DNA of 26,394 bases from a virus (Duplodnaviria > Caudoviricetes): positions 1 to 26,394 of the IMG/VR virus record IMGVR_UViG_3300027697_000060. The stretch is one strand, 5' to 3'. The notes under the pieces are model-generated. The model did no database searches. It was not told where the DNA came from and saw only the letters and a program-made list of their open reading frames with translations. Position numbers and translations under genes: made by a program. Shown here piece by piece: positions 1-2,770 of this stretch; position 1 is the stretch's first letter, and every line of letters begins with the position of its first letter.

Positions 1-38
1 TCTTTATTCTGCATTATAAAACAAAATGCATACTAATT

Positions 39-149
39 ATGGAAAACGCATTACAATTCTTATTCCCAATTCAATTAATCATTTTTGGGATATTCTTATT
101 TCATGTAGCAAAATACATTTACATAACTATTAAAACAAAATTATCATGA
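39..149 (+). CDS. small single-TM membrane peptide (36 aa, MENALQFLFPIQLIIFGIFLFHVAKYIYITIKTKLS)
   Basis: Manual translation; hydrophobic core with basic C-terminus; stop overlaps next start (ATGA 146-149). Below ORF-track length cutoff. Confidence 0.6.
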   Translation: MENALQFLFPIQLIIFGIFLFHVAKYIYITIKTKLS

Positions 150-250
150 ATCAATTTATTTCATTAGGTGAATTCATTATGATTGTTCTTATATGTTATC
201 CCGTTGTAATATTCGGGAAAACATTAATAGAGCATATTAAGGATAAATAA
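146..250 (+). CDS. small single-TM membrane peptide (34 aa, MNQFISLGEFIMIVLICYPVVIFGKTLIEHIKDK)
   Basis: Manual translation; ATGA coupling to the previous ORF; hydrophobic stretch then charged tail. Confidence 0.6.
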   Translation: MNQFISLGEFIMIVLICYPVVIFGKTLIEHIKDK

Positions 251-271
251 AACTATTAAACACAACACAGC

Positions 272-1546
272 ATGGAAAACACAACACAACAAAAAACAAT
301 GGCATTTACTACCTTAAGGGTAATAATGCAGATGATTGAGAAATCAATTAAAAATGGCTATTTGAGGGACGAATGGAAGGATGATAAGATAAATAATTAC
401 AACAATATTGTCACTACCTATTCAGGTTATTATGCTATGAATCATGATTGCATAATGGCTGAAGGCGAATACTTGCATGAGATTGAGGATGCGGATGATT
501 ATGTATATGATGAAATTGATGAAAAATACATATTTAGTGACAATGCAAGTTGGGTAGAAACAGGACGCGACGGATATTATACCCATGACGATAATTGCTC
601 GGGATGTAATGGTATATATCGTTACAATAGTATATGGATTAATGACTCATATATGGAACGATACGATTTGGTACATGATTGCGACGGGGACATTAGGAAT
701 ATAGATGATGTCTATTATTGGGAATCGGATTGCGAATGGCATGATGAACCCGAAAATGATGATGATGATGATGATGATGATGATGATTGCGATATGGATG
801 CAGCATGTATAAATTCCTATTCTTATCGTCCGTCAATGAAATTCCATAAATTATCGAATGAGAATGAAAATGCACCATTTTTCGGTATTGAATTGGAAGT
901 AGAAAGGAAAAATAGTAATGGGTTGAAGCATAAATATATGGCGGGAATGATTGAGCATGACCATTGGTATTTTAAAACGGACGGAAGTTTAACGGACGGG
1001 TTCGAAATTGTTACGCATCCAATGACATTCAACTACATTCAACAAAGTACAAAGGAATTTACTAATTCCCTTAAATTGTTGGTTGAAAATGGATATAATA
1101 GTTACGACGCAAATACATGCGGGATGCACATTCACATTAGTAAAAATAATTTTACTACATGGCATTTATATCGTTTCCTTAAATTCTTTGTAGAAAATAA
1201 AGAATTCATTGTAGCTATTTCACAAAGGAAAATGGAAAAACTGAAAAAATGGGCTAACATTGAGGACGACAATGATACTTCATTGATATATAAAGCAAAG
1301 AAAAAGGACGGGAATAGTGAACGATATGTAGCAATTAATCTTAAAAATAGTCAAACGATTGAAATTCGCATTTTTAGGGGAACGTTAAACATAAATTCAT
1401 TCATGAAAAATATTGAATTCGCACATGCTTTATTTATGTACACAAAGGAAAATAAAGATGTGACATTAGACGGGTTCAAATTATATATTGAATCATCTTG
1501 CGACTATTCCAATTTAAAAAAATTCATCAACTTAAAAAATATATAA
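272..1546 (+). CDS. putative amidoligase (COOH-NH2 ligase type 2 / Amidoligase_2-like) with acidic N-terminal extension
   Basis: Motifs FGIELEVE, DGSL..GFEIVTHP, TCGMHIHIS, RYVAIN, TIEIRIFRGT typical of the glutamine synthetase-fold amidoligase family; adjacent GATase. Confidence 0.85.
   Translation: MENTTQQKTMAFTTLRVIMQMIEKSIKNGYLRDEWKDDKINNYNNIVTTYSGYYAMNHDCIMAEGEYLHEIEDADDYVYDEIDEKYIFSDNASWVETGRDGYYTHDDNCSGCNGIYRYNSIWINDSYMERYDLVHDCDGDIRNIDDVYYWESDCEWHDEPENDDDDDDDDDDCDMDAACINSYSYRPSMKFHKLSNENENAPFFGIELEVERKNSNGLKHKYMAGMIEHDHWYFKTDGSLTDGFEIVTHPMTFNYIQQSTKEFTNSLKLLVENGYNSYDANTCGMHIHISKNNFTTWHLYRFLKFFVENKEFIVAISQRKMEKLKKWANIEDDNDTSLIYKAKKKDGNSERYVAINLKNSQTIEIRIFRGTLNINSFMKNIEFAHALFMYTKENKDVTLDGFKLYIESSCDYSNLKKFINLKNI
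758..787 (+). repeat. (GAT)10 microsatellite encoding poly-Asp
   Basis: Ten perfect GAT units in frame, giving D10 in the amidoligase linker. Confidence 0.95.
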
Positions 1547-1549
1547 ATT

Positions 1550-2284
1550 ATGTGCATTATAGCTATTCAGCCATTAGGCGTAAAAATAAAGGAATCAACA
1601 TTGAAAAATTGTTGGGATGCTAACAAGGACGGCGCGGGTATTATGTATGTTGAAAACGGGAAAATCATTGTAAACAAGGAAATGCATTCATTTAATGAAT
1701 TTATGAAACTAAAAAAACATGCGGACAAAGTGAATTCAAATATTGTTATGCATTTTCGAATTGCGACGTCGGGCGGGATTAATGACAGGAATTGTCATCC
1801 ATTTAAGGTTAATAATGACCTATATTTTTGTCATAATGGAATTTTGGATATTGATGTTCCTTTACATTCGAATATTAATGATACGCAAATTTTCAATAAT
1901 TCGTTTATGAAAGGATTGCCCGATAATTTTGTTCAAAATGATACGATCATGGCATTGATTGAATATACAATAGGCAATCGAAATAAATTCGTTTTCATGG
2001 ATGCAACAGGACAATTTTACATCCTGAATGAAAATGCGGGAAAATGGGACAATGGTGCATGGTATTCGAATGAAACATACAAAAGACATTCATATACATA
2101 TTACCCGAAAAAATGGGATTTTCATGCAAAGGATAAAAAGAATGATAAATATTCCATTGAGGATAAATTCGAATATTGCGAATCATGCAATGAAGTCCAT
2201 TCATTAGATGATATGGTGCATGACAATTATTTCGATATGCTATTGTGTACAAAATGTAGTGAATGGGTAATTGAGGAAAAATAA
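1550..2284 (+). CDS. class II (Ntn) glutamine amidotransferase with C-terminal CxxC..CxxC zinc finger
   Basis: N-terminal M-C catalytic Cys, NKDGAG, HFRIATSG, NCHPF, HNG, NDT motifs; C-terminal CESC...CTKC. Confidence 0.88.
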   Translation: MCIIAIQPLGVKIKESTLKNCWDANKDGAGIMYVENGKIIVNKEMHSFNEFMKLKKHADKVNSNIVMHFRIATSGGINDRNCHPFKVNNDLYFCHNGILDIDVPLHSNINDTQIFNNSFMKGLPDNFVQNDTIMALIEYTIGNRNKFVFMDATGQFYILNENAGKWDNGAWYSNETYKRHSYTYYPKKWDFHAKDKKNDKYSIEDKFEYCESCNEVHSLDDMVHDNYFDMLLCTKCSEWVIEEK

Positions 2285-2306
2285 TATTGTTGGTTTTCTA
2301 TTGTGT

Positions 2307-2342
2307 AAGTGAATATCCTGAAATATGGGTATTCACTTTTTT
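2307..2342 (+). terminator. Rho-independent terminator
   Basis: Stem AAGTGAATATCC / GGGTATTCACTT followed by a T run, just after the GATase stop. Confidence 0.8.
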
Positions 2343-2518
2343 AGGTATAAGGATGTACCAATTATAAAAAATAGCCAAAATAAGGCAATTTAAGACACTA
2401 AAAATATAAAACAATGTAATACCATTACTAACATATCAAAATGGCTGAATCGGGCTAAAAATGGGCAAAGAATTGATTTTGTGCATTAGGTCATGATATT
2501 GCAAACATTATGTGTAAT

Positions 2519-2569
2519 ATTGATGTTTTAACATTGATGTTATGCCATTGATGTTGCAACATTGTTGAC
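2519..2569. repeat. 14-bp-period direct repeats ATTGATGTT with an overlapping palindrome
   Basis: ATTGATGTT at 2519, 2533, 2547; degenerate ATTGTTG at 2561; perfect palindrome ATGTTGCAACAT at 2551-2562. Confidence 0.85.
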
Positions 2570-2594
2570 TATGCAACTAATAATCAGTTGCAGG

Positions 2595-2770
2595 CAAAAA
2601 CCTGCCAAAAACCCTATGCAAAAACTCCCCAAAAAACCCACAAAAATCTGGGGCAAAAATCTTTTGCATGGACAAAAACTTTTGCAAAGCTTTAACAAAA
2701 TTTTAACAAAAAACTTTTAAATATTTACAAAAACTTCCTAATTTTACACTCGACACAACCAAAACAAAAA
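2595..2770. repeat. phased CAAAAA A-tract array
   Basis: CAAAA(A) at 2595, 2606, 2619, 2630, 2641, 2654, 2673, 2696, 2707, 2728, 2760, 2765; spacings mostly 11-13 bp or about twice that. Confidence 0.85.

What the first reader, a model, noticed from the sequence alone, without database searches (positions are those of the whole stretch)
1..2637. First ~2.6 kb is purged of specific motifs: candidate restriction-evading first-injected region
Seen (manual scan): in 1-2637 every CCA is followed by A/T and every TGG is preceded by A/T (roughly 50 cases). CCAG/CTGG and CCAC/GTGG are therefore absent; the first ones are at 2638 and 2648, and they are common afterwards. GAAGA/TCTTC is also absent (first at 2900), and all four Glu-Asp/Glu-Glu pairs use GAG rather than the AT-favoured GAA (485, 1262, 2159, 2273), which removes GAAGA. 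Only 1 of 17 Arg codons in the two large genes is AGA, although AGA dominates downstream. Many palindromic 4-mers (TCGA, CATG, GTAC) are not avoided. Established: GAAGA is the MboII site, and T5 injects a first-step-transfer segment depleted in some restriction sites. Inference: this is the end of a first-entering region selected against asymmetric recognition sites (type IIS/IIG/III or BREX-like) of the host, while later DNA is protected after early genes act.
Basis: partly seen in the sequence, partly recalled or inferred. Interest (0 to 1): 0.85.

Follow-up and report, generated by a model that had tools for sequence, protein, structure and literature searches.

The report
Motif-purged early segment of freshwater phage

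Summary
Bases 1-2590 have CAG/CTG+GAG/CTC ('SAG') at 10/kb against 34-40/kb downstream, on both strands, across codon junctions and in non-coding DNA; CG is not depleted there. The block (two small ORFs, amidoligase, glutamine amidotransferase) fills a hypervariable slot between the divergent terminase genes and a phased CAAAAA array. It recurs in 12 of 12 close relatives and in alleles down to about 55% identity whose synonymous sites are near saturation, and it co-diverges with the terminase, so it is maintained in place rather than a recent transfer. GAAGA and CCAC are not conserved targets (absent in 7 and 3 of 29 alleles). Other slot alleles show a milder purge ending at the same array. 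T5's first-step-transfer DNA shows the same low-SAG/high-CG step; SPO1's terminal repeat does not. Best reading (0.55): a first-entering segment selected against many asymmetric methylation-based defence sites. Not shown: genome ends (the terminase family is usually headful), the defence system, and selection versus local mutation bias. The segment also tolerates CGCG/GCGC, which the backbone avoids; that is unexplained.

The parts
1..2590 (.). SAG-purged, CG-undepleted segment; cut by the contig start (in relative L003 the conserved G-run element lies about 340-390 bp further left, then the divergent Zn-ribbon, terS, terL genes)
   Evidence: SAG 10.4/kb vs 34.1 and 40.2/kb downstream; change point 2584; left context
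39..149 (+). 36-aa hydrophobic ORF; family present in 43 of 46 slot alleles
   Evidence: SAG 6.7/kb in 9 amidoligase alleles vs 16.2/kb in 28 others
146..250 (+). 34-aa hydrophobic ORF; family present in 38 of 46 slot alleles
   Evidence: SAG 10.5/kb (9 alleles) vs 22.7/kb (22 alleles)
272..1546 (+). Amidoligase_2 (PF12224) protein, 424 aa, with an acidic Cys/His-rich N-terminal part of no named family
   Evidence: Pfam E 6e-10, residues 204-387; N-terminal part unnamed in the Atlas; no PDB sequence hit
1550..2284 (+). Class II glutamine amidotransferase (PF13230), 244 aa, Cys at position 2
   Evidence: Pfam E 3.5e-7
2307..2338 (+). Intrinsic-terminator-like hairpin followed by a T run
   Evidence: 1 found, 1.2 expected in shuffles, so weak alone; similar hairpins follow the GATase in L002 and L097
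2519..2567 (+). Three direct repeats at 14-bp spacing
   Evidence: also in L003 and L002, not seen in L097
2595..2733 (+). Phased CAAAAA array (spacings 11, 13, 11, 11, 13, 19); marks the right edge of the purge; candidate bent-DNA or entry-pause element (function inferred only)
   Evidence: densest CAAAAA stretch of the window; at least 5 copies in 160 bp in 39 of 46 slots; SAG steps from 0.32 to 0.90 across it in amidoligase alleles
2775..26394 (.). Rest of the phage (early/replication genes on +, lysis/tail genes on -): normal SAG; avoids CCGG (0), CGCG (0), GCGC (4), GGCC (1), CCCG (4)

Best explanation
The segment is the first DNA to enter the cell, or at least the first to be exposed and transcribed, in a family of ~34-kb lytic tailed phages from fresh water, probably of Bacteroidota. 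The virion DNA would start near the conserved G-run upstream of terS. The immediate-early unit (two small membrane-type ORFs plus variable cargo; here amidoligase and GATase) must stay intact until its products act, and DNA beyond the phased A-tract array is then protected. Long exposure to many hosts with many different asymmetric adenine-methylation systems (type IIG/III/I, BREX-like) removes the short cores those sites share, chiefly CAG and GAG and words such as CAGA, GGAG, CCAG, GAGT, ACAG, CATCG. CG-containing synonyms take their place. Shown: extent, boundaries, both-strand and codon-junction nature, persistence, co-divergence, likeness to T5. Inferred: entry order, the defence class (that such sites often end in CAG/GAG is recalled, not tested here), and a protective role for the enzymes.
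For: (1) Not protein-driven: 15 sister amidoligases from other phage groups have AG 0.99-1.36 against 0.41-0.74 in 21 clade alleles. (2) DNA-level: both strands are depleted (group A GAG 0.43/CTC 0.17, CAG 0.60/CTG 0.41); codon junctions show SAG 0.50-0.53; non-coding 2285-2774 has AG 0.60. (3) Maintained in place: four-fold sites differ from the window by 0.24-0.70 and AG/CT positions turn over (18-21 of 98 shared with group B), yet optional-site use stays 0.15-0.27 vs 0.45-0.51 in control genes. Alleles A-D are one clade (support 99) and co-diverge with terL (Mantel 0.75, n=16) and the next early gene (0.67, n=19). (4) Word-specific beyond own codon usage, in 5 lineage sets: CAGA 9/45, GGAG 3/26, CCAG 2/18, CATCG 1/19 (no AG in it), TCAGA 0/14, ACAGT 0/11; the window backbone instead lacks palindromes. 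(5) Positional: SAG is lower before than after the array in 16 of 16 amidoligase loci and 19 of 27 others (core words 24 of 27); genes inserted after the array are largely released. (6) T5 first-step-transfer DNA: SAG 0.7-0.8 vs 1.0-1.4 and CG 1.1-1.5 vs 0.5-0.9, with a step at 10 kb. Its 4-mer contrast correlates with the cassette contrast, rho 0.49 (junction-only 0.32-0.36), against -0.09/-0.11 for an internal T5 control. T5-like phages resist RM unless sites lie in that region (PMC10644984, passages); the same holds for type I sites in murciaviruses (PMC12455610).
Against: (1) TerL is PBSX-family (TIGR01547), taken as headful in Bacteroides phages (10.1101/2020.03.04.977157), and PMC12455610 says early-region avoidance should not apply to headful packagers. 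Contig ends do not pile up at one base. (2) The cassette tolerates CGCG/GCGC (up to 13 and 15 in 2.6 kb), CCCG and in group B ACGT, which the same genomes' backbones nearly lack (0-1 CGCG in 2.5-23.5 kb); a most-exposed segment should avoid them too. (3) Non-amidoligase alleles are only mildly purged (AG 0.70-1.01 in 33 slots) and group D has largely lost the purge (AG 0.89). (4) The rarity of AG-bearing alleles (33 vs 8) is what a neutral two-state model with a low equilibrium gives, so selection is not separated from mutation bias. (5) The number of depleted 4-mers is not higher than in sister genes (14 of 135 vs 24 of 136; sisters had more sequence), and sisters are also short of CCAG (31/64) and ACAGT (17/45). 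(6) SPO1's terminal repeat shows no step; LUZ24, T7 and Marvin only weak ones. Mid-versus-late controls in T7 and LUZ24 give rho 0.36 and 0.23 in the full test, so part of the T5 likeness is a general early/late codon axis. (7) No host methylome was compared.
Confidence: 0.55

Rival explanations
1. First-expressed rather than first-entering. The phage packages by headful, all DNA enters quickly, and site-bound defence complexes (BREX-like or type IIG/III) block or damage the immediate-early operon before its products act. Only that transcription unit is purged.
For: PBSX-family TerL. The purge matches a transcription unit: it starts at the divergent promoter region and ends after the terminator. 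In group A, CT on the coding strand is more depleted than AG (0.47 vs 0.69). In other phages SAG dips also begin at the late/early divergence point (L117, L121, L122, L132, L220; 5 of 8 loci looked at, uncorrected for amino acids).
Against: Headful SPP1 and the Bacteroidota phages 11b and phi10:1 show no such step. The purge continues about 250 bp past the terminator to the array.
Confidence: 0.17
2. Donor signature. The cassette comes, repeatedly, from phages whose whole genome is SAG-poor and CG-rich, and it has not ameliorated.
For: Such genomes exist: Flavobacterium phage FpV9 has SAG 0.1-0.4 and CG 1.3-1.9 almost genome-wide; its 4-mer spectrum correlates 0.30-0.42 with the cassettes. The cassette is exempt from backbone CGCG/GCGC avoidance, and the strong signal follows the amidoligase allele.
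Against: Near-saturated synonymous turnover without decay. Co-divergence with terL and the next early gene. Cassette and backbone share lineage-specific states for CATG, CCGG and partly GGCC and GATC. Lowest whole-locus AG among 221 fetched loci over 8 kb is 0.74. No Flavobacterium phage among the amidoligase or GATase hits in 50,697 phage records. FpV9 keeps CCGG (114/27) and CATCG (96/43) and lacks CGCG (0/16), unlike the cassette.
Confidence: 0.12
3. Local mutation bias. A region-specific process (end repair by an error-prone polymerase, or damage at AG/CT) removes AG/CT and creates CG without selection.
For: The frequency skew fits a neutral low-equilibrium model. In group B each NAG deficit has an NCG surplus.
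Against: Replacement differs by lineage (A: AT, CA/TG, AA; B: CG, CC/GG; C: CG, GC). Strong context dependence (AGG 1.05-1.11 in A and B; GAG 0.25-0.34) and a non-AG word, CATCG, are purged. Alleles of the same slot differ widely.
Confidence: 0.1
4. Codon or mRNA-level adaptation of the earliest genes (tRNA supply or ribonuclease avoidance), as reported for plasmid leading regions (PMC13478746).
For: Marked codon shifts (AGA, TCT, ACT, GCT, CTN low). The early/late codon axis partly reproduces the contrast.
Against: Depletion holds on both strands, across codon junctions and in non-coding DNA.
Confidence: 0.06

Closest known systems
Phage T5/BF23 first-step-transfer (FST) region
   Same: A bounded early block with low SAG/AG and high CG against the rest, a sharp step, and a repeat-rich non-coding border (PMC10644984 passages). 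GCGC and CGCG are also over-represented in T5 FST (45/13, 21/13).
   Different: 3 kb not 10 kb; a ~34-kb genome; a much deeper purge (SAG about 0.3 vs 0.7-0.8); swappable cargo; no T5 A1/A2 annotation among the window's family hits; no terminal repeat or two-step entry shown; PBSX-family terminase.
Early-injected region of Autographiviridae (murciaviruses, T7)
   Same: Hypervariable early region with small genes where defence sites matter most (PMC12455610, abstract, Introduction, Discussion).
   Different: There, one type I motif in a podovirus with fixed ends. Here, a broad trinucleotide-level purge; T7 itself shows only SAG 0.9-1.0 vs 1.1-1.3.
Genome-wide restriction-site avoidance in phages
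   Same: The backbone shows classic palindrome avoidance (CCGG 0, CGCG 0, GGCC 1).
   Different: The segment avoids asymmetric words instead; asymmetric type I/IIG/III sites are described as not uniformly avoided (10.64898/2026.09.23.753747, passage).
Phage amidoligase (PF12224) + class II GATase pair (MEP401, Marvin, LUZ24)
   Same: Same two families, adjacent; near a record end in MEP401 (1-3.6 kb) and Marvin (last 4 kb). Function open: cell-wall modification or metabolite synthesis suggested (PMC10580990, passage).
   Different: Those genes show little or no purge (other viral loci SAG 0.95 vs 1.06, lower in 55 of 70; bacterial loci no effect, lower in 22 of 58).
Flavobacterium phage FpV9
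   Same: Low SAG, high CG.
   Different: Genome-wide except the 5.4-8.8 kb gene; different longer words; no amidoligase hit.

Membership tests
T5-type first-step-transfer segment | Lies at a fixed genome end as a long direct terminal repeat | not testable with these tools
   All 24 runs are contigs only; no start/end pile-ups; contig ends scatter.
T5-type first-step-transfer segment | DNA entry pauses at a stop signal until pre-early genes act | not testable with these tools
   Only a candidate border element: the phased CAAAAA array.
T5-type first-step-transfer segment | Sharply bounded block with low SAG and high CG relative to the rest | tested here: met
T5-type first-step-transfer segment | Encodes A1/A2-type second-step-transfer proteins | tested here: not met
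   The two large genes are amidoligase and GATase; the two 34-36-aa ORFs were not scanned.
Restriction-site-avoiding leading region | Depletion beyond amino-acid and codon constraints | tested here: met
Restriction-site-avoiding leading region | Depleted words match the host's methylated motifs | not tested
   Host unknown; the Bacteroides motif table of PMC10333322 was in a file too large to read; the Flavobacterium tables of PMC4571129 were not opened.
Restriction-site-avoiding leading region | Also avoids the palindromic sites avoided genome-wide | tested here: not met
   CCGG yes; CGCG, GCGC, and ACGT in group B no
MboII (GAAGA) avoidance | GAAGA absent from homologous segments | tested here: not met
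   absent in 7 of 29 alleles, up to 17 copies
Recent horizontally transferred island | Little synonymous divergence, signature decaying, tree unlike the backbone's | tested here: not met
   (group D may be decaying)
Headful (pac) packager | PBSX/Terminase_3-family large terminase | tested here: met
   PF04466 and TIGR01547 on relative L011; family is suggestive, not decisive
Amidoligase_2 + class II GATase pair | PF12224 and GATase domains in adjacent genes | tested here: met

The most novel reading that the evidence does not exclude
These small phages use staged, T5-like entry: a ~3-kb pre-early module enters first and pauses at the phased A-tract array. The amidoligase/GATase pair is a broad counter-defence (or entry-release) function that must be made before the rest follows. 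The low-SAG/high-CG step is then a fingerprint that finds first-entering segments and anti-defence cargo in uncultured phages from sequence alone, and the CGCG/GCGC exemption means the segment meets a different set of nucleases than the backbone.
Probability: 0.2. Interest if true: 0.85.

Novelty: new variant of a known kind. Interest (0 to 1): 0.66.

Why it matters
Site avoidance in first-entering DNA is known from T5-like and T7-like phages for single motifs. Here it appears as a threefold, lineage-wide purge of CAG/GAG words with conserved borders, and the same signature is visible in T5. If it holds, it gives a cheap way to locate entry ends and immediate-early anti-defence genes in uncultured phages. 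It would show that asymmetric methylation-based systems do shape phage DNA, but only locally. It also gives a testable role to the widespread, functionally open amidoligase/GATase pair.

Tried and rejected
GAAGA/MboII and CCAC as conserved targets: rejected. Protein composition as cause: rejected by sister amidoligases. Assembly chimera: unlikely, since the same junction occurs in independent loci. In four runs from four studies, contig pieces covered the region (28-30 of 30 bins) but no listed piece spanned it. Termini: only contigs were available, so none could be mapped; contig ends upstream of terL scatter over 47-2226 bp. Selection versus mutation: the allele-frequency skew was not informative once tree depth was simulated; the direction of substitutions remains undetermined. 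The Markov word test ignores protein constraints and its control step crashed, so one search was used instead. The Bacteroidota -7 promoter pattern (recalled) is not enriched (36 vs 43 expected). No Rfam match in the window, L011 or L003. No cultured DNA relative. No PDB sequence relative and no named family for the N-terminal part; no structure model was obtained, so the enzyme's substrate is open. NARP3 (PMC13464706, abstract only) is unrelated. SPO1, SPP1, 11b, phi10:1, BKO1-1 and MW202733 show no step. Ten literature searches listed no paper on a CAG/GAG-poor first-entering segment or on this phage family; the library lacks most subscription papers.
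Full report
Setting. The window is a whole 26,394-bp contig of a tailed phage: + strand early and replication genes to 11.3 kb, then lysis and tail genes on the - strand. 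Contigs holding this or close amidoligases reach about 34 kb. The 24 runs listed (17 studies) are mostly freshwater or lake metagenomes. A Bacteroidota host is inferred from weak best hits only: TerL 35-37% to Bacteroides and Flavobacterium phages, capsid 34-35% to Cellulophaga phi10:1 and Flavobacterium 11b, DnaB 39% to Prevotella and Parabacteroides.

Observation. They are part of a wider signal. AG/CT has relative abundance 0.48 against 1.17 in the rest, AC/GT 0.75 vs 0.97 and CG 1.08 vs 0.46. CAG/CTG plus GAG/CTC (SAG) runs at 10.4/kb in 1-2590 and 34-40/kb beyond, with the change point at 2584.

Anatomy from relatives. All 12 loci with a 73-89% identical amidoligase show the same ~3-kb island with normal DNA on both sides where flanks exist (two pairs are near-copies). 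To the left lie divergent Zn-ribbon, terS, terL, portal, protease and capsid genes, preceded by a conserved G-run element. Of the best 80 of 306 terL relatives, 46 had enough upstream DNA, and only 3 carried the amidoligase. Across 46 complete slots, two small hydrophobic ORFs are nearly constant and the rest is variable small genes; 13 amidoligase slots have AG 0.56-0.65 and 33 others 0.70-1.01 (duplicates included). The right edge is a phased CAAAAA array (2595-2733), found in 39 of 46 slots. Aligned on it, SAG steps from 0.32 to 0.90 in amidoligase alleles (lower before in 16 of 16) and from about 0.8 to 1.0 in others (19 of 27; core words 24 of 27); 59 distinct of 66 sequences had an array. 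Where extra genes follow the array (L002, L097, L102) they are largely released (0.61-0.74 vs 0.29-0.31).

What is depleted. Across three deep allele groups GAG/CTC is 0.25-0.34 and CAG/CTG 0.32-0.49 of an amino-acid-preserving expectation, on both strands. Against each allele's own codons permuted, five lineage sets lack CAGA (9/45), GGAG (3/26), GAGT (12/42), CCAG (2/18), ACAG (13/37), CATCG (1/19), TCAGA (0/14) and ACAGT (0/11). The window backbone instead lacks GATC, GGCC, CCGG and TCGA. Against this, sister genes have as many depleted 4-mers (24 of 136 vs 14 of 135) and share part of the CCAG and ACAGT deficit. Of 29 alleles, TCAGA is absent in 28, ACAGT in 28, CAGAG in 26, CATCG in 19, GGAG in 15, CCAG in 12, GAAGA in 7 and CCAC in 3. 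So MboII-type GAAGA avoidance is particular to this and a few genomes.

It is maintained in place. Twenty-one alleles at 56-96% identity differ from the window at 24-70% of four-fold sites yet keep AG at 0.41-0.74; 15 sister amidoligases from other phage groups have 0.99-1.36. Optional third positions make AG/CT in 740 of 4479 (A), 213 of 1395 (B) and 270 of 992 (C) cases, against 45% in terL and 51% in an early control gene. Alleles A-D form one clade (support 99); two deeper alleles sit apart. Amidoligase distance tracks terL (Mantel 0.75, n=16), terS (0.43, n=23), the next early gene (0.67, n=19) and the control gene (0.33, n=14). Group D has nearly lost the purge (AG 0.89). A donor-like genome does exist: FpV9 is SAG-poor and CG-rich almost throughout, but its longer words differ and it gave no amidoligase or GATase hit. 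Whether selection or mutation keeps the level low is not settled: the skew of 33 to 8 toward rare AG-bearing alleles is matched by a neutral two-state simulation. Context specificity and lineage-specific replacements favour selection.

Comparison with known first-entering DNA. T5's annotated first-step-transfer repeat (1-10,219) has SAG 0.7-0.8 and CG 1.1-1.5 against 1.0-1.4 and 0.5-0.9 in the next 30 kb. Its 4-mer contrast correlates with the cassette contrast at 0.49 (junction-only 0.32-0.36), versus -0.09/-0.11 for an internal control; T7 and LUZ24 mid-versus-late controls reach 0.36 and 0.23 in the full test but 0.16 and 0.02 junction-only. 4-mers are not independent, so these are descriptive. 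LUZ24, T7 and Marvin show weak end gradients; SPO1's terminal repeat, SPP1, 11b and phi10:1 show none. Other viral amidoligase loci are slightly lower near the gene (55 of 70); bacterial ones are not (22 of 58).

Mechanism. Most likely the unit is exposed first and must be expressed before protection exists. Selection by many asymmetric adenine-methylation systems strips their shared cores; that such sites often end in CAG/GAG is from memory and was not tested. The stronger purge in amidoligase alleles fits a two-enzyme unit with long residence in the slot, while small cargo genes act faster or arrive later (inference). Two facts do not fit well. TerL is PBSX-family, read as headful elsewhere, and headful packagers should have no fixed leading end. 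And the segment carries up to 13 CGCG and 15 GCGC while its own backbone has almost none, although T5 FST is also rich in both.

Literature seen. PMC12455610: abstract, Introduction, Discussion. PMC13478746: abstract and one results section; no systematic RM-target depletion in plasmid leading regions. Passages only: PMC10644984, PMC10580990, PMC10333322 (motif supplement too large to read, and it could bear on the motif claim), PMC4571129 (supplements not opened), 10.1101/2020.03.04.977157 (114), PMC8776804, 10.64898/2026.09.23.753747 (117). PMC13464706: abstract. PMC7824862: one reference line (58). An earlier AI note of this scan (e1-6065882) describes a CAG/GAG/AAG-poor end in Gordonia-type phages; I did not check it and do not count it as support.

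Verdict. Real, conserved and sharply bounded; a new variant of leading-region site avoidance, not shown to be a T5-type segment. Interest 0.66.

Noticed in passing
window 2595-2733 and homologous slots: Phased CAAAAA array at 11-13-bp spacing, suggesting bent DNA; could also be a replication or protein-binding site. A DnaA-C-type HTH gene lies at 3625-3999.
   Followed up: partly
L003 about 4290-4350; L011 about 9260-9315: Conserved G-rich element, a ~20-bp variable gap, then a second G-run, just upstream of the Zn-ribbon/terS genes; sequence diverges right after it. Candidate packaging or end site.
   Followed up: partly
L334 (Flavobacterium phage FpV9): Genome-wide extreme AG/CT depletion (0.2-0.6) with high CG, except the large gene at 5.4-8.8 kb.
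   Followed up: partly
L336 (T5) 1-10,200: Low-SAG/high-CG step at the first-step-transfer border; not found described in the searches run.
   Followed up: partly
L097 6603-7238, L102, L022, L026, L055, L088, L090, L093: A DNA methyltransferase (phrog_757 for L097) is optional cargo in the slot; in L097 it lies after the array.
   Followed up: no
window 767-787: Poly-Asp GAT repeat in the amidoligase linker; relatives use Glu/Asp mixes here, which is where their GAAGA sites cluster.
   Followed up: partly
window 5415-5747, 6050-6664, 8933-9406, 12713-13279, 15073-15528: Five HNH or GIY-YIG-like endonuclease genes in 26 kb.
   Followed up: no
L117, L121, L122, L111, L119: In larger related phages the first gene after the late/early divergence (a Lys/Asn/Thr-rich ~150-aa ORF) is SAG-poor while the amidoligase further on is not; not corrected for amino-acid content.
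   Followed up: partly
L035, L041, L042, L050, L051, L056, upstream of terS: tRNA-like sequences appear on the terS side of the slot in the printed DNA; not scanned.
   Followed up: no
L036 slot: One slot with very low CG (0.15), no SAG purge and no shared cargo families.
   Followed up: no
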